Shown here: in pieces, positions 3,536 through 30,229 of the stretch
How the letters are laid out: every line of letters starts with the position of its first letter
How positions within the stretch are numbered: position 1 is the first letter of the stretch
Assembly (NCBI GenBank): GCA_050259635.1
Contig: JBLNBA010000002.1
Location: forward strand, 26,681 to 90,680
DNA length: 64,000 nucleotides
Direction: 5' to 3'
Origin: Bacillota bacterium
GTDB taxonomy: Bacteria > Patescibacteriota > Patescibacteriia > Patescibacteriales > UBA12465
Made by a program: the position numbers and the translations under genes
Notes under the pieces: generated by a model
Database searches by the model: none
Told to the model about the DNA's origin: nothing
Seen by the model: the letters and a program-made list of their open reading frames with translations, nothing else

Positions 3536-3685
3536 CACGGAGGAAAAAAATTGAAAAAACTATTGTGTATTTTTTCTTCTGAGTGTATAATATAAGCAGT
3601 TAGATAAAAATTTTTTTTAAAAAAATTTTACAAAGAATTTTTTTAAAAGATAAATGGGATATTTCCCAGAAAGGAGGTGAGCAAT

Positions 3686-3859
3686 ATGGCTACCAAAAAG
3701 AAACCTGCGGCTAAGAAGGCCGTCAAGAAGCCGGTAAAAAAGGCTGTTAAGACTATTAAGAAGGTTGCGAAGAAAGTGGTTAAAAAAGCTGCTCCTAAGA
3801 AGGCTGCTAAGAAGACCGCTAAGAAACCGGCTGCTAAGAAGACCGCAAAGAAGAAATAA
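3686..3859 (+). CDS. histone H1-like Lys/Ala-rich basic protein
   Basis: 57 aa of KKPAAKKAVKKPVKK-type low complexity. SD AAGGAGG (3671-3677) sits 8 nt before ATG 3686. The track start (GTG 3677) overlaps the SD and is rejected. The gene has its own terminator. Confidence 0.75.
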   Translation: MATKKKPAAKKAVKKPVKKAVKTIKKVAKKVVKKAAPKKAAKKTAKKPAAKKTAKKK

Positions 3860-3964: not shown

Positions 3965-4798
3965 ATGAAGATATTACGGATTGTTTTATATGTTGCGGCC
4001 TTATTGGCCGCATATGCTTGGCTGGCGTCGCCTGATAATGTTGGCGTGGAAGCGATCTTTTTTGACGTTGGCCAGGGAGATGCCTGGCTGATGAAGACAA
4101 AGGCGGGAAAAATCATATTGGTGGACGGTGGTCCGGACTGGAAACTCATTCCTCTCATAGATTCATATCTCGGCCCGGAGAGACGGACGATCGATATTCT
4201 GGTTGCTACCCATGCCCATAGCGACCACCTATCATCTCTTCCCGAGATAACACAGAGATATGAAGTCAGGACGGCGATACTGCCGGTTAGCTTTTCAGGC
4301 GGCGAAGCAGAGTCGTTGGTATCCGCTCTAAAGATGGAAGGTGCAGATATCGTTCATTTGGAAGGGTATCGTTGTCTGGAATTGGAGGAAGATTGTAGCT
4401 TGTGCCTTGATGCGGGAGAGCAGAAGGACACTGAGGATGAAAACGATAATTCATTAATTAGCCGTTGGGACTGCGGCGGAATATCTATCGTGGGAACCGG
4501 CGATGCCGGAATAGGAAGGGAGACTAATTATCTCAAGCAGGCGGGCGGTGAAAGGGCAGACGTCTTGAAAGTTGGGCACCACGGTTCAGATACTTCATCC
4601 TCCAAAGAATTTCTAGCGGCGGTACAACCAAAAATCGCTTATATTTCTGTGGGAAAAGATAATAGCTACGGACATCCCTCTCTTGAAACTTTAGCTAAGC
4701 TTGGGGATATCTTTATAGAAATATGGAGGAGCGATGAGATGGGTTCATTAAGAATTTATGCTAATAATAATAAAATTATTGCGGAAAAATGGCCATAA
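3965..4798 (+). CDS. ComEC/Rec2-type metallo-beta-lactamase-fold protein, stand-alone domain with N-terminal membrane anchor
   Basis: 277 aa. N-terminal hydrophobic helix, FFDVGQGDAWL, the MBL motif ATHAHSDHLSSL, and KVGHHGSDTSS, as in the C-terminal domain of ComEC. Confidence 0.8.
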   Translation: MKILRIVLYVAALLAAYAWLASPDNVGVEAIFFDVGQGDAWLMKTKAGKIILVDGGPDWKLIPLIDSYLGPERRTIDILVATHAHSDHLSSLPEITQRYEVRTAILPVSFSGGEAESLVSALKMEGADIVHLEGYRCLELEEDCSLCLDAGEQKDTEDENDNSLISRWDCGGISIVGTGDAGIGRETNYLKQAGGERADVLKVGHHGSDTSSSKEFLAAVQPKIAYISVGKDNSYGHPSLETLAKLGDIFIEIWRSDEMGSLRIYANNNKIIAEKWP

Positions 4799-4831
4799 GA
4801 ACTCACGACCGGCAGCCTGTGGATAACAGTA

Positions 4832-4860
4832 TTGACAAGCACGGTTTATAATGATATAGT
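4832..4860 (+). promoter_or_regulatory. sigma70-type promoter of the candidate small RNA
   Basis: TTGACA (4832-4837), 17-nt spacer, TATAGT (4855-4860) preceded by TGA (extended -10 TGATATAGT). Confidence 0.6.
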
Positions 4861-4864
4861 TAGG

Positions 4865-5040
4865 GGTTGCTTAAAAACAGAAAAGGCCGTTTGAAACGGG
4901 TCAGGCACGACAAGCATGGGGACTTTCTTGCTAGGGTTTTTTGGGCCTGCCATTGGTACATATAAATATGTATCAGCGGCGGGCTCGGTAATTCCTAGGA
5001 GAAATTTTCTTGCCTACCCGTTTTAGACGGTCTTTTTTTT
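4865..5040 (+). ncRNA. candidate ~175-nt rod-shaped structured RNA (identity unknown; 6S-like size and shape)
   Basis: Lies between its own promoter and a T8 run. 4881-4901 pairs with 5016-5036 over 21 consecutive bp. An apical hairpin spans 4943-4986. No recognisable protein gene. Confidence 0.5.
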
Positions 5041-5041
5041 A

Positions 5042-5070
5042 TTGACAATTTCTATATTTGGGCTGATAAT
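5042..5070 (+). promoter_or_regulatory. sigma70-type promoter, cassette 1
   Basis: TTGACA-N17-GATAAT. The block 5060-5087 (GGGCTGATAATAGTCTGAATCGTTATTT) is identical to 5790-5817. Confidence 0.65.
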
Positions 5071-5149
5071 AGTCTGAATCGTTATTTAATAAATTACTAA
5101 CCAGCCAAAGTCTGATATAGACAAGGCATAAACAAAGGAGGATCAAGTC

Positions 5150-5737
5150 ATGAAAAACAATGACAAGTCTGGATTATTGAATGAAAGTATCGGTGCTATT
5201 ATTGCAACGATGAAAGCTCTCGAGGATTGTGGGATGACAGCCAGCGGATTAGCAAGGTTGCGCTCTGATAAGGGGCTAGCAAAGATGGTGGCAGAAATGG
5301 TAGAGCGTGAAGTGGGCGTTAATCAAGGTATGTCGCAGGCTATCACGGTCGATTATACCAAGACTATTGAGGAGTTCTTATCGGAAATGGATTGCGTTTG
5401 GAAACATAAATATGTTTGTGACAAGCAATTTCCGATTCTCGAAATATTGAAAGGTGAAAAAATTAGAAAAAAGGCCCGCTTGTTCAGGTTTGATGATGAA
5501 AGCTTTGATATTGGAAGCGATTACCGATTTGCGACAATCTTTGAGTTGATTGCGTATTATCGGCAAGTGGAGTACTCTCATGTGTTCCACATCGTTGGTG
5601 CTGGCAGTAAAACGAGCGAATGGGTTGGAGGTCTTATCCCCGTCATAGACACCATTGAGGGTAAAATCAGCCTTGATCTTCGTCATGAAGCGGATGTCCA
5701 TGTAGTCGGTAATTATTTCCTGGCAATTCAGGTTTAA
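5150..5737 (+). CDS. hypothetical protein, paralog A of twin cassette
   Basis: 195 aa. Strong SD (AAAGGAGG) before the ATG, plus its own promoter and terminator. Shares ordered motifs with the ORF at 5841-6278. Confidence 0.75.
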   Translation: MKNNDKSGLLNESIGAIIATMKALEDCGMTASGLARLRSDKGLAKMVAEMVEREVGVNQGMSQAITVDYTKTIEEFLSEMDCVWKHKYVCDKQFPILEILKGEKIRKKARLFRFDDESFDIGSDYRFATIFELIAYYRQVEYSHVFHIVGAGSKTSEWVGGLIPVIDTIEGKISLDLRHEADVHVVGNYFLAIQV

Positions 5738-5740
5738 AGC

Positions 5741-5768
5741 AAAACCCTTCGGTAACGAAGGGTTTTTT
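5741..5768 (+). terminator. intrinsic terminator, cassette 1
   Basis: AACCCTTCG GTAA CGAAGGGTT hairpin followed by a T-run. Confidence 0.8.
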
Positions 5769-5771
5769 ATA

Positions 5772-5800
5772 TTGACTTTTTTCTTATCCGGGCTGATAAT
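5772..5800 (+). promoter_or_regulatory. sigma70-type promoter, cassette 2
   Basis: TTGACT-N17-GATAAT, a duplicate of the promoter at 5042-5070. Confidence 0.65.
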
Positions 5801-5840
5801 AGTCTGAATCGTTATTTTACAAAAAGAGAAAGGAAAAAAA

Positions 5841-6278
5841 ATGAAAGATTCAAAATTTAGAAATAAGGTGTATCTTATTTCCGTAGATTATTCGCAAAGC
5901 CTGGACCAGATGGCGGTGGCATGCAATCTATATTGTAAGGACGGAGAATTTTCTGAGGAGATATATAAGAAAGATCCGAAGTACAAGAACAGGAAAGTTC
6001 TGAGACAAGCAAAGCTGTTTAATTCCAAGGAAGAGCTGGAATTATCTGTAAGAAGTGAAAAATACTTACCAGCGGCTATGAATGACCTGCTTTCATTCTG
6101 CCTGCAATGGTACGAGCTTTGCCGGGATAGCATTATTGTCGCTTCTTGTATTATGCCCGGCAAACCGTCTAAATCAAGTTCGATATATCTGGTCAGCGGT
6201 AAGTATCTTCGGTTTGATTCTTCTTTTGAAAGAGTACCACGAAAATTTTATCTCGCAGTCAGAGACTTGGCAAGATAA
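5841..6278 (+). CDS. hypothetical protein, paralog B of twin cassette
   Basis: 145 aa. A purine-rich stretch (GAGAAAGGAAAAAAAA) precedes the ATG. Shares motifs with 5150-5737 (ISVDYSQSLDQ, RQAKLF, FYLAVR). Confidence 0.7.
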   Translation: MKDSKFRNKVYLISVDYSQSLDQMAVACNLYCKDGEFSEEIYKKDPKYKNRKVLRQAKLFNSKEELELSVRSEKYLPAAMNDLLSFCLQWYELCRDSIIVASCIMPGKPSKSSSIYLVSGKYLRFDSSFERVPRKFYLAVRDLAR

Positions 6279-6292
6279 AAACTGAAACTATT

Positions 6293-6320
6293 AAAAAAGC
6301 CCTCGGATCAGAGGGCTTTT
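6293..6320. terminator. bidirectional intrinsic terminator between convergent genes
   Basis: A-run, GCCCTC / GAGGGC stem with a 6-nt loop, then a T-run. Confidence 0.7.
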
Positions 6321-6325
6321 GTATT

Positions 6326-8149
6326 TCATCTCGTGCTGGTAGCGATAGGTGGAGTTCCGGTAGCGATGGGGGTGCTAGTAGAAGTAACGGGAGTGGAGGT
6401 GGCTTTTCCTACCAAACAAACTTCCTGCCAAGGAACGTAGTGGGATTGGAAGCGTCGCTTCACTTCCGGTGTCGTAGTGGAGCCCTCAGGATATACCACG
6501 GTGTAATCAAACCAGGCGTCAGCGCCGTTATGGGCTTTTTCGGTGCACTTTCTTTCTCCGGGCTTGAGTTCTTCCGTCTCGACGATCTTGGTGGGGGCTG
6601 GTTTTACAATGTTATATATGACGGGATAGGTAGTCGTGGCTGTCCGCCCATCTTTTGTGCCCCAGAAGTCGAAATAGAGATCGTTTCCTTCGATCCTTGA
6701 TTGGATTAGGATATTACTGCCGGTATCGTTGATAAAACGGAAATCTGGCCAGGGGTCGTAAATAGTGGCATCCGTTCCGGCCGGTTCATAATAAGAAACC
6801 CGGTAGGAATGGTTTTGCCTGGCCGTAATAGGGAGTCCGGATCCGAGGGCAGTGCGGAACATCGTGGTACCGACTTGGCAGAGACCGCCGCCGTATTCGG
6901 GTATCGTGCGGTTGTTCTTGATTACGAGTTCGGGGACATAGCCTCCTGAGGCATCGATGTTACCTAAAGCCTTGATCAAGGAGAACTCGTCTCCGGGCTT
7001 GATTATCAGGCCATGGAGAGCGTTTGCTCCGTTACTGATATTATGGCGTCGATTAGAGGAGGACCCGGAGAAGTTTGAATGGCCAGTTCCGATAATCTCT
7101 TTTATATCCATAGCCGCTGCCTCATCCGGAGGGGTGGCGACGATTTTTAGTTCGATCTTCTGCGGTCCCTGGGCGGAAGAATAGGCGGCTGCTATTTCAC
7201 GGGAACTAGTAGCAGTTTCCAACTTGTATCCGTCTTTACCGACTTGCCAGCTGGTAACTTTTTCATCCTTGATTTCAAAGCGGGGGGATTGGGGCTCGAT
7301 ATCGATCTCGGGAGCAATCTTTTCGGCAAGGTAGCTTTCTATTCGGGATTCATCATAATCAAGTTCGTAGCCACCGGATTGCTTCTTGGCGGTCAGCCAA
7401 GAGGCAATTTCTTCGCGTCCCACTTTCCACTCCTTATCCTTAAAGGTTAAAGAGAGGAGAACGTCGCTCATGTCGGCGGCTTTCTTTTCCAGCCCTTGCA
7501 GGTCGCGAGCGTAAACCTGCGGATAGGCGGTTTTAGTTTTGAGGACGATAGTGGAATTATCAAAGGAGCGAAGCCTGGAATCGATTTCAGAAAAAAGATT
7601 GTCCCAATCGGCTTCTTTTCCTGTCATGTCCTCGGAGACAGAAAATTTTCCATCTTTAAAGGTAAAGGAGGCATCCACCGCCGGTTTCTTACTTCCAGGC
7701 AAGGCTTCCGAGATGGCTTGTTCTACTTTGTCGCGGTTAATGAAAAACTCGGGCCTTATCTCCGTCGCTTTGTTGCGAACCGCACCCAGCCAGCGGCTTA
7801 GCAAGGAGATATGGGAATAGGAAAACAGTTTTTCTTCCAGCGCTTCGGTTTGATAATTATAATTATTATAAGATACCCCGGAATCAAAAGAAGCGGCGAT
7901 AGCTGGCAAGTCAAATTCTTCGTTATTATAGGTAATCTTTATCCCCTTTTCTTCGAAAGTGGCCGTGGCTACTTTAATCTTATCGGCTGCAGTCTGGAGA
8001 CTTAGGCCGCCGATCGCTATGTTGCCATAGAAGGTGTTTTCCGGCAGGAGCCCGTCACTGTCCTTCCTGGTTAAAAGATATACGGCTGATATTAAAAAGA
8101 CCACCAGAATGGCGATCGCCGTGATTGCTGCAGGGGTCGGTTTTTTCAT
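6326..8149 (-). CDS. VanW-domain envelope protein with N-terminal membrane anchor
   Basis: 607 aa. TM helix AAITAIAILVVFLISAVYLL, VanW core GGGLCQVGTTMFRTALGSGLPITARQNHSYRVSYY, and a Thr/Pro-rich C-terminus. Confidence 0.85.
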   Translation of the reverse strand: MKKPTPAAITAIAILVVFLISAVYLLTRKDSDGLLPENTFYGNIAIGGLSLQTAADKIKVATATFEEKGIKITYNNEEFDLPAIAASFDSGVSYNNYNYQTEALEEKLFSYSHISLLSRWLGAVRNKATEIRPEFFINRDKVEQAISEALPGSKKPAVDASFTFKDGKFSVSEDMTGKEADWDNLFSEIDSRLRSFDNSTIVLKTKTAYPQVYARDLQGLEKKAADMSDVLLSLTFKDKEWKVGREEIASWLTAKKQSGGYELDYDESRIESYLAEKIAPEIDIEPQSPRFEIKDEKVTSWQVGKDGYKLETATSSREIAAAYSSAQGPQKIELKIVATPPDEAAAMDIKEIIGTGHSNFSGSSSNRRHNISNGANALHGLIIKPGDEFSLIKALGNIDASGGYVPELVIKNNRTIPEYGGGLCQVGTTMFRTALGSGLPITARQNHSYRVSYYEPAGTDATIYDPWPDFRFINDTGSNILIQSRIEGNDLYFDFWGTKDGRTATTTYPVIYNIVKPAPTKIVETEELKPGERKCTEKAHNGADAWFDYTVVYPEGSTTTPEVKRRFQSHYVPWQEVCLVGKATSTPVTSTSTPIATGTPPIATSTR

Positions 8150-28700: not shown

Positions 28701-30178
<1,478 letters not shown>

Positions 30179-30229
30179 TAGTATAGAGATCATCGGTCCC
30201 GAAGGACTGATGAAAAGATTCTGGTTGAT

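What the first reader, a model, noticed from the sequence alone, without database searches (positions are those of the whole stretch)
5041..6325. Twin single-gene cassettes with a duplicated promoter/leader and divergent paralogous proteins
Two adjacent genes (195 aa and 145 aa) each have their own promoter and their own intrinsic terminator.

The promoter regions share ATTGAC, 13 nt, and then an identical 28-nt block, GGGCTGATAATAGTCTGAATCGTTATTT (5060-5087 = 5790-5817). That block spans the -10 element, the predicted start site and the early leader.

The proteins are far more diverged than the promoters but keep ordered motifs:
- ITVDYTKTIEE / ISVDYSQSLDQ
- KKARLFRF / RQAKLFNS
- a central helix-like region, FATIFELIAYYRQ / LLSFCLQWYEL
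- YFLAIQ / FYLAVR at the C-terminus

Promoters conserved more strongly than coding sequence point to selection on a shared regulatory input. That input could be an operator or a leader RNA element within the 28-mer. I do not recognise the protein family by name. The overall pattern resembles a widespread uncharacterised family, but that is recollection and not evidence.
Basis: partly seen in the sequence, partly recalled or inferred. Interest (0 to 1): 0.6.

Follow-up and report, generated by a model that had tools for sequence, protein, structure and literature searches.

The report
Tandem paralogs sharing one core promoter
Two neighbouring small genes are very diverged copies of each other that still share an identical 28-base core promoter, and they belong to a rare, unnamed protein family in which at least one member is rewritten by a mutagenic reverse-transcriptase system (a DGR).

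Summary
The 28-mer GGGCTGATAATAGTCTGAATCGTTATTT occurs exactly twice, at 5060-5087 and 5790-5817. It lies inside a 61-nt repeat (84% identical) that covers a -35 hexamer, a GATAAT -10 hexamer and about 11 transcribed bases. Each gene also has its own terminator-like hairpin.

The two proteins are not significantly similar pairwise (BLASTP E=39). However, a profile built only from outside homologs scores G1 at 123 bits and G2 at 31 bits (E about 1e-11), so they are paralogs.

The family is rare (about 20 representatives among 1.84 billion proteins) and matches nothing in Pfam, NCBIfam, PHROGs or PADLOC. One homolog (P0003) is a clear DGR target: its 3' end differs from a nearby template repeat at 20 positions, all template adenines, and a reverse transcriptase gene follows. 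No template repeat or reverse transcriptase exists in this window, so DGR activity on G1 and G2 is unproven.

Separately transcribed tandem paralogs, with the full-length copy first and an N-terminally different copy after it, recur in two other genomes.

The 28-mer is not conserved in other genomes. A different element is: a covarying 5'-UTR hairpin at 5104-5128, upstream of G1 only, found in 15 loci.

This is a new member of a known kind and is moderately interesting.

The parts
5033..5093 (+). Repeat copy 1. It covers the T-run of the upstream terminator, the -35 hexamer (TTGACA, 5042-5047), a diverged 13-nt spacer segment, and the identical 28-mer (5060-5087). The 28-mer holds the -10 hexamer GATAAT (5065-5070) and spans about -17 to +11 if transcription starts near 5077.
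   Evidence: The start site is inferred, not measured.
5096..5152 (+). Conserved 5'-UTR motif of G1. The hairpin core is 5104-5128: GCC-AAA-GUCUG-loop-UAGAC-AA-GGC-A. It is followed 8 nt later by the Shine-Dalgarno sequence GGAGG (5137-5141) and then the ATG at 5150.
   Evidence: The covariance model R1 scores it at 66.4 bits and finds a single copy in the window. Four of 5 inner-stem pairs covary, and 94% of cells are paired against 34% or less in slid controls.
5150..5737 (+). G1, 195 aa, a full-length family member. It has the N-terminal domain of about 55 aa (5150-5314) and the C-terminal module (about 5336-5734) carrying the VDY, KLF, RPAT-ELLA-like and FLA(V/I) motifs.
   Evidence: (123.6 bits)
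5741..5766 (+). Terminator-like hairpin of G1 (11 pairs). Its T-run merges into the -35 region of G2.
5763..5823 (+). Repeat copy 2: -35 hexamer TTGACT (5772-5777), identical 28-mer (5790-5817) holding the -10 hexamer GATAAT (5795-5800), and a short leader without the hairpin motif.
5841..6278 (+). G2, 145 aa, a diverged paralog. It lacks the N-terminal domain. Only the first two-thirds of the C-module align to the family profile (profile positions 49-150).
   Evidence: (31.1 bits, E 8.6e-12)
6295..6320 (+). Terminator-like hairpin of G2. It faces the 3' end of the convergent VanW-domain gene (6326-8149, minus strand).
4832..5041 (+). Neighbouring unit, possibly unrelated. It consists of a strong promoter-like site (TTGACA-17-TATAGT with TG) and about 170 nt that fold into one long hairpin ending in a T8 run. 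The T8 run abuts the -35 of G1. This is a candidate structured small RNA.
   Evidence: -88.1 kcal/mol, z -11.3; opposite strand only -53.3; no Rfam family

Best explanation
G1 and G2 are tandem, separately transcribed paralogs of a small protein family restricted to one lineage and found in Patescibacteria-like metagenome genomes.

The canonical family architecture has three parts: a conserved 5'-UTR hairpin, an N-terminal domain of about 55 aa, and a C-terminal module of about 140 aa. In at least one member, the last 45 residues or so of that module form the variable region of a diversity-generating retroelement (DGR). G1 keeps the whole architecture. G2 is a strongly diverged copy that has lost the N-domain and the hairpin.

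The 61-nt repeat is the duplicated core promoter. Its perfectly identical 28 nt run from about -17 to +11. Most likely this block is a short copy or gene-conversion tract (or a retained piece of the original duplication unit) that gives both genes the same sigma-70-type core promoter, and hence similar transcription.

By homology, the proteins are inferred to be ligand-binding proteins of the DGR variable-protein kind.

What is shown: the repeat, the paralogy, the family, the DGR status of homolog P0003, the recurrence of tandem separately promoted paralogs, and the leader hairpin.

What is inferred: that the promoters are active, where transcription starts, that the genes are co-expressed, that the proteins bind ligands, and how the 28-mer arose.
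For: Repeat and signals.

Paralogy through an independent profile: G1 123.6 bits, G2 31.1 bits; the best shuffle scored 4.2 bits; the only two hits among 502 ORFs.

Family.

DGR link:
- In L006 the 3' end of P0003 (1206-1343) matches a repeat 505 nt downstream (1711-1848) at 86% identity. All 20 mismatches fall at adenines of the downstream copy.
- An RVT_1 reverse transcriptase gene follows (99.9 bits; phrog_1423 at 357 bits).

Recurrent architecture:
- L010 has three tandem paralogs. The first has the N-domain and the next two lack it, and intergenic gaps are 150-220 nt.
- L031 has a full-length copy, then a terminator, then a promoter-like TTGACA-17-TATATA site, then a second paralog with a different N-terminus. 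Its two promoter regions are 71% identical over 55 nt against 68% in the coding sequence.

The 28-mer is absent from all homologous loci. That argues it is specific to this lineage and not an ancient operator.

Two assemblies agree base for base over 15.7 kb.
Against: There are no expression data. Promoters, terminators and the start site are consensus matches only.

No template repeat and no reverse transcriptase were found in the window or in the 4.85 kb upstream. G1 has lost the conserved Trp residues of the variable-region scaffold. G1 and G2 also lack the CTTGG-rich spacer that follows the stop codon of the confirmed target and some relatives. The DGR link therefore rests on homology alone.

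The fold of the C-module is unknown. Single-sequence AlphaFold models were poor (pLDDT 33 and 58), Foldseek was uninformative, and there were no Pfam or PDB sequence hits.

A copy or conversion tract of only 28 nt, flanked by a scrambled spacer, is unusual. The non-uniform mismatch pattern (P about 0.01) equally fits selection on that block.
Confidence: 0.6

Rival explanations
1. The 28-mer is an operator or other factor-binding site that overlaps the -10 hexamer and the start site. Purifying selection keeps it identical because one regulator controls both genes.
For: All ten mismatches of the 61-nt repeat lie outside the 28-mer (P about 0.01). The block covers more than a promoter needs: it includes GGGCT upstream of the -10 hexamer, the discriminator and 11 transcribed bases. 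The coding sequence is near saturation (36% identity at third positions).
Against: The 28-mer, or anything within 8 mismatches of it, is absent upstream of every homolog in other genomes, including relatives that share synteny. It has no clear dyad symmetry on direct reading. No regulator gene is adjacent. Identity at 28 of 28 positions is more than known operators need. Only two copies exist in 69 kb.
Confidence: 0.25
2. G1 and/or G2 are active, remote targets of a DGR encoded elsewhere in the genome. Their extreme divergence partly reflects retroelement-driven hypermutation of the C-terminal region.
For: They belong to the same family as a demonstrated DGR target. Most family members examined also lack a reverse transcriptase or template repeat within their 1-16 kb loci. 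Remote targets are documented for DGRs (PMC5758913). The C-terminal third of G2 no longer aligns to the family profile.
Against: No adenine-biased repeat of either gene and no reverse transcriptase occur in 69 kb. G1 and G2 share no nucleotide similarity at their 3' ends, so one template could not serve both. The divergence spans the whole module, not only the variable-region equivalent. The CTTGG-rich spacer after the stop codon of the confirmed target is missing. In the 2017 survey, targets more than 100 kb from the RT were found only for Lineage 4 DGRs and their neighbours on the RT tree, and not for DGRs of candidate-phyla-radiation (CPR, i.e. Patescibacteria) genomes (PMC5758913).
Confidence: 0.15
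3. The two 28-mers are direct repeats used for recombination. Cassette excision or exchange would delete or swap the 730-bp G1 unit and leave G2 under an identical promoter.
For: The exact direct repeats flank precisely one gene unit. In another branch of the N-domain family, two alleles are identical for 450 nt and then differ at 65 of the last 270 nt, which suggests C-terminal swapping.
Against: No recombinase or integrase gene is nearby. No deletion variant was seen, and the two assemblies are identical. A 28-bp repeat is at the lower limit for homologous recombination.
Confidence: 0.05
4. The resemblance between the proteins is chance, and the repeat is a generic genomic repeat.
For: Pairwise BLASTP gives E=39.
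Against: Profile score of 31-33 bits against 4.2 bits or less for shuffles. The 28-mer occurs only at the two promoters.
Confidence: 0.02

Closest known systems
DGR variable (target) proteins, in particular the largely unclassified targets of candidate-phyla-radiation DGRs (the 'UVR' and ungrouped classes of Wu et al. 2018, PMC5758913; DGR clade 2 of Roux et al. 2021, PMC8144416)
   Same: The homolog P0003 has a C-terminal variable region and a template repeat with adenine-only mismatches next to a reverse transcriptase gene. The proteins are small and have no recognisable domains. Multiple targets per DGR cassette are documented (about 15% of DGRs; one with eight in tandem).
   Different: G1 and G2 have no template repeat or reverse transcriptase within 69 kb. 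No match to the C-type-lectin-fold Pfam families (DUF1566, FGE-sulfatase) appeared even at E<=10. The resemblance of G(Y/F)RPAT..ELLA and RFLAV(R/K) to the 'RLPT..E' helix and 'GFR.(A/V)R' end of C-type-lectin DGR targets comes from my memory and was not tested.
Ordinary tandem gene duplication in which the duplicated unit includes the promoter
   Same: Period of 730 bp. Each copy has a -35 hexamer, a -10 hexamer, a ribosome-binding site and a terminator. L031 shows the same arrangement, with promoter and coding sequence about equally diverged.
   Different: Here the promoter block is 100% identical while the proteins are 17% identical. Neutral co-divergence does not predict this.
Polymorphic-toxin-style loci: a full-length gene followed by 'orphan' C-terminal modules
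   Same: A full-length copy comes first and copies without the N-domain follow, in three genomes. The conserved N-terminal domain is fused to several different C-termini.
   Different: The downstream copies have their own promoter-like site, ribosome-binding site and start codon. There are no toxin or immunity domains and no PADLOC hit.
Short cis-regulatory 5'-UTR hairpins such as ribosomal-protein leaders, and the RT-10 RNA motif of DGRs (PMC5737381)
   Same: The G1 leader hairpin is a small, covarying stem-loop with invariant internal-loop bases. It sits 8 nt upstream of the Shine-Dalgarno sequence and is tied to one gene family.
   Different: It is not in Rfam 15. It lies upstream of the target-type gene, not between the template repeat and the reverse transcriptase as RT-10 does. 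Its ligand or partner is unknown.

Membership tests
Unnamed N-domain/C-module family (defined here from the hits) | Significant match to a profile built from family members other than the query | tested here: met
   G1 scores 123.6 bits over profile positions 2-200. G2 scores 31.1-32.8 bits over positions 49-150.
Unnamed N-domain/C-module family (defined here from the hits) | N-terminal domain of about 55 aa (SGLWNASFGEIGATLK..L.D.G...LRSDK.LAK) | tested here: met
   G1 has a diverged version (SGLLNESIGAIIATMKALEDCG...LRSDKGLAK). G2 lacks it, as do the second and third copies in L010 and the second copy in L031.
Unnamed N-domain/C-module family (defined here from the hits) | Conserved 5'-UTR hairpin upstream of genes that carry the N-domain | tested here: met
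   G1 scores 66.4 bits with model R1. G2 has no hit. Three loci found independently through their proteins (L039, L041, L045) carry the hairpin with compensatory changes.
DGR target (variable protein) gene | A variable region paired with a template repeat whose mismatches fall at template adenines | tested here: inconclusive
   None was found for G1 or G2 in the 64-kb window or in the 4.85 kb upstream. The rest of the 219.5-kb contig and of the genome could not be read. The same method recovers the pair in L006 with 20 of 20 mismatches at adenines.
DGR target (variable protein) gene | A DGR-type reverse transcriptase in the same genome | tested here: inconclusive
   tblastn with the L006 reverse transcriptase finds nothing in the window (best E 0.94).
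DGR target (variable protein) gene | Homology to a protein with a demonstrated variable-region/template-repeat pair | tested here: met
   P0003 is the best outside hit of G1 (E 5e-17, 37% identity) and is the L006 target.
C-type-lectin-fold DGR variable proteins (Pfam DUF1566, FGE-sulfatase; Mtd and TvpA structures) | Sequence match to the Pfam models or to solved structures | tested here: not met
   No such Pfam hit at E<=10 for 13 family members. No PDB sequence hit better than E about 1 using the family profile.
C-type-lectin-fold DGR variable proteins (Pfam DUF1566, FGE-sulfatase; Mtd and TvpA structures) | C-type-lectin fold of the module that carries the variable region | not testable with these tools
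Foldseek against the PDB gave nothing below E 0.8.
Sigma-70 promoter and intrinsic terminator transcription unit | Consensus -35 and -10 hexamers with 17-nt spacing upstream, and a GC-rich hairpin with a T-run downstream, for each gene | tested here: met
   (11/12 and 10/12 hexamer matches; hairpins of 11 and 10 pairs). These are consensus matches only, with no transcript data.

The most novel reading that the evidence does not exclude
The leader hairpin (GCC-AAA-stem-loop-AA-GGC-A, 8 nt upstream of the Shine-Dalgarno sequence) together with the 55-aa N-terminal domain would form a previously undescribed regulatory module of DGR-type variable-protein genes in Patescibacteria. One version is translational autoregulation, or control by a shared RNA-binding factor. 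The neighbouring 170-nt hairpin RNA has a single-stranded bulge (CGACAAGCAU) that resembles the hairpin's conserved 3' half (GACAAGGCAU), so it could act as a decoy. In this reading the identical 28-mer ties the N-less paralog G2 into the same transcriptional programme, and both genes are remote DGR targets.
Probability: 0.12. Interest if true: 0.7.

Novelty: new member of a known kind. Interest (0 to 1): 0.42.

Why it matters
Targets of DGRs in candidate-phyla-radiation bacteria are almost entirely unannotated. This locus helps define one such family. The definition comprises an N-terminal domain shared by several different C-terminal modules, a recurring layout of a full-length gene followed by separately promoted copies without that domain, and a conserved, covarying 5'-UTR hairpin that is absent from Rfam.

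The twin promoters themselves are a small but clean case of a core promoter kept identical while the proteins diverged to 17% identity. That makes co-regulation, and conversion versus selection, directly testable. None of this changes a major concept.

Tried and rejected
**Searches of annotated libraries**
- Pfam, PADLOC, NCBIfam and PHROGs scans of G1, G2 and homologs gave nothing meaningful.
- The word-indexed search of 5.8 billion protein clusters found only the proteins themselves. Run with the family alignment, it added only two outside proteins, P0022 and P0024.
- The family profile against PDB sequences gave nothing below E about 1.
- Rfam has no real family in 4700-6400. The only weak matches are terminator-driven leader-peptide hits.

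**Structure**
- Single-sequence AlphaFold gave poor models, so the Foldseek result is meaningless.

**Locus and repeat searches**
- The 28-mer has 0 hits in GTDB representative genomes.
- An adenine-tolerant scan for a template repeat of G1 or G2, and a tblastn search for a reverse transcriptase, were both negative in the window.
- I looked by eye for complementarity between the upstream hairpin RNA and the shared 11-nt leader start and found none.
- I considered that TATTGAC marks homology. It does not: it occurs 10 times in the window, so it is a generic -35 context.

**Literature**
- Searches for the family motifs as text strings gave 0 papers.
- No supplements were held for the DGR survey paper.
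Full report
**1. The observation**

The region reads as described. The 28-mer GGGCTGATAATAGTCTGAATCGTTATTT occurs exactly twice in the 64-kb window, at 5060-5087 and 5790-5817. No third copy appears with up to three mismatches, and shuffles gave none. It is absent from the extra 4.85 kb upstream held in L001 and from one genome per GTDB species.

The repeat extends to 61 nt (5033-5093 versus 5763-5823, 51/61 identical). The consensus scan places TTGACA-17-GATAAT at 5042-5070 and TTGACT-17-GATAAT at 5772-5800. It places hairpin-plus-T-run sites at 5741-5766 and 6295-6320. If transcription starts about 7 nt after the -10 hexamer, the 28-mer spans roughly -17 to +11; that is an inference.

All ten mismatches of the repeat lie outside the 28-mer (P about 0.01 for such a run). 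TATTGAC itself is a generic -35 context in this genome, with 10 copies.

**2. Are the proteins related?**

Pairwise, hardly. BLASTP gives E=39 and Smith-Waterman against shuffles gives z=3.3-3.9.

A full HMMER scan of 1.84 billion representatives with G1 found 22 proteins at E<=1e-3.

An HMM built from 13 of these sequences, without G1 or G2, scores G1 at 123.6 bits and G2 at 31.1 bits (E 8.6e-12). The best of 200 shuffles of G2 scored 4.2 bits. Among 502 six-frame ORFs of the window, only these two match.

They are therefore paralogs. Over 92 aligned columns they are 17% identical in amino acids, 41% in nucleotides and 36% at third positions. G2 aligns only to profile positions 49-150. It lacks the N-terminal domain, and its C-terminal third has drifted out of the profile.

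**3. What the family is**

Pfam, PADLOC, NCBIfam, PHROGs and PDB sequences give nothing.

Genomic context is informative. In L006 (GCA_964466835.1) the last 138 nt of the best homolog, P0003, are repeated 505 nt downstream at 86% identity. All 20 mismatches sit at adenines of the downstream copy. A 336-aa RVT_1 reverse transcriptase gene follows. This is the signature of a diversity-generating retroelement, with P0003 as its variable protein.

The N-terminal domain of about 55 aa is also fused to other C-termini (P0010-12, P0016, P0020, P0023). One of these subfamilies matches the profile weakly around the RPAT..ELLA region. It also shows hypervariable, Asp/Ser/Gly/Tyr-rich C-terminal ends between orthologs.

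Most other family loci have no reverse transcriptase or template repeat within the 1-16 kb available.

Hosts appear to be Patescibacteria-like. L013 is labelled as such. L008 and L042 both carry a double-T2SSE ATPase of about 1000 aa, as does L001, and L042 and L001 also have tyrosyl-tRNA synthetase nearby. The NCBI label of the source genome is 'Bacillota bacterium'. I could not verify the taxonomy.

**4. Is this locus a DGR target?**

It is not shown. An adenine-tolerant diagonal scan, a BLAST-based scan for adenine-biased repeats, and tblastn with the L006 reverse transcriptase all find nothing in the window or in L001.

Other points weigh against it. G1 has lost the conserved tryptophans of the variable-region scaffold. 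The two genes share no 3' nucleotide similarity. Both lack the CTTGG-rich spacer that separates the stop codon from the terminator in the confirmed target and in L031, L010 (first gene) and L036.

The remaining 150 kb or so of the contig and the other contigs could not be read, and non-adjacent targets are known for DGRs (PMC5758913). I put active targeting at about 0.15.

**5. The twin-cassette layout recurs**

L010 has three tandem paralogs between rpsP and a KH-domain gene. The first has the N-domain and the next two lack it, and intergenic gaps are 150-220 nt. Read directly, these gaps hold terminator-like and promoter-like sequences.

L031 has a full-length copy, then a terminator-like hairpin, then TTGACA-17-TATATA, then a second paralog with a different N-terminus. 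There the two promoter regions are 71% identical over 55 nt against 68% for the coding sequence, which is what plain co-divergence predicts.

The window differs in one respect only: its core promoter block is perfect while the proteins are nearly unrecognisable.

**6. How to read the 28-mer**

It is not conserved upstream of any homolog (best match 9 or more mismatches). It is therefore not a family-wide operator. Three readings remain:
- A short copy or conversion tract, or a retained piece of the duplication unit, kept because it is a good core promoter. I favour this one.
- A binding site for a lineage-specific regulator that overlaps the -10 hexamer and the start site. Probability about 0.25.
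- A recombination repeat. Unlikely.

All three predict similar transcription of G1 and G2. They differ in what close relatives and binding assays would show.

**7.

Upstream of G1, at 5104-5128, lies GCC-AAA-GUCUG-AUA-UAGAC-AA-GGC-A. The Shine-Dalgarno sequence follows 8 nt later.

The same motif precedes N-domain genes whose proteins are only 30-37% identical to G1. Pattern scans found it in 4 of 11 genome hits and 8 of 17 metagenome hits (6 distinct sequences once duplicate contigs are merged). Every one of those lies upstream of an N-domain gene. All other hits were GC-rich chance matches.

Three loci reached independently through their proteins (L039, L041, L045) also carry it, with compensatory changes. 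A covariance model separates the 15 true sites (52-75 bits) from the chance matches (26 bits or less). It finds one copy in the window and none before G2, L010 or L002.

Four of the 5 inner-stem pairs covary. Cells are 94% paired against 34% or less when the partners are slid. One caveat applies: 10 of the 13 sequences were found with a pattern that fixes the outer stem.

Rfam has no such family. The only DGR-linked RNA motif I found in the literature, RT-10, lies next to the reverse transcriptase (PMC5737381).

**8. Verdict**

The object is a pair of tandem paralogs of an unannotated family of the DGR-target type, driven by duplicated core promoters. It is a new member of a known kind. The most original by-product is the leader hairpin, followed by the adjacent candidate small RNA.

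Noticed in passing
window 4832-5041 (+): A strong promoter-like site (TTGACA-17-TATAGT with TG) is followed by about 170 nt that fold into one near-perfect long hairpin (-88.1 kcal/mol, z -11.3) ending in T8. The opposite strand folds far worse (-53.3), so many G-U pairs point to a transcribed structured RNA. There is no Rfam family and no ORF of 40 aa or more. Collection scans were exhausted before homologs could be sought.
   Followed up: partly
window 4907-4916 versus 5120-5129: The only large single-stranded bulge of that hairpin RNA (CGACAAGCAU) resembles the invariant 3' half of the G1 leader motif (GACAAGGCAU). This was noticed after the fact. A shared 6-mer has roughly a 4% chance in 176 nt.
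   Followed up: no
window 5096-5152; L006 678-736; L008 7944-8003; L009 602-663; L013 3154-3216(-); L014 298-355(-); L016 2584-2641; L025 4669-4728(-); L031 5578-5635; L036 843-902(-); L039 594-646; L041 452-509; L045 about 1400-1460: A conserved, covarying 5'-UTR hairpin lies upstream of genes that encode the 55-aa N-terminal domain, whatever their C-terminal module. It is not in Rfam.
   Followed up: yes
L006 1346-1420; L031 6251-6320; L010 2996-3060; L036 downstream of the gene: A spacer of 60-70 nt rich in CTTGG/CTTGA repeats lies between the stop codon and the terminator in the confirmed DGR target and some relatives. It is absent after G1, G2 and most other members. It could be a DGR target-recognition element.
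   Followed up: partly
L026 versus L029 (N-domain gene, about 730 nt): The two alleles are identical over the first 450 nt and then differ at 65 of the last 270 nt, about equally at all three codon positions. This looks like replacement of the C-terminal part and not only adenine mutagenesis.
   Followed up: partly
L013 2383-4217 (-) and 4392-4842: Two tandem paralogs are 86% identical over 570-630 nt but have different N-terminal domains, and their C-terminal ends are hypervariable. Next to them is a tandem repeat of about 181 nt (93% identical) of unknown nature.
   Followed up: no
window 4750-6250: G+C drops to 37-43% across the hairpin RNA, G1 and G2, against about 48% in the flanks. The three units lie between a metallo-beta-lactamase-fold gene and a VanW-domain gene and may be a small acquired or fast-evolving islet.
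   Followed up: no
window 28701-30180 (-): A 16S rRNA gene has no 23S rRNA gene anywhere in the 64-kb window, so the rRNA genes are unlinked. From general knowledge, not tested here, this fits a Patescibacteria-type genome better than the 'Bacillota' label.
   Followed up: no
window 3677-3859 (+): A 60-aa ORF made almost entirely of KKAAKK-type repeats, resembling a histone H1-like or basic DNA-binding protein.
   Followed up: no
L044 4618-4674 and 5313-5369: The upstream regions of two adjacent genes (an unrelated 191-aa gene and family member P0018) share a 57-nt stretch at 79% identity that includes TATTGACA. This may be another duplicated promoter or just AT-rich promoter consensus.
   Followed up: no
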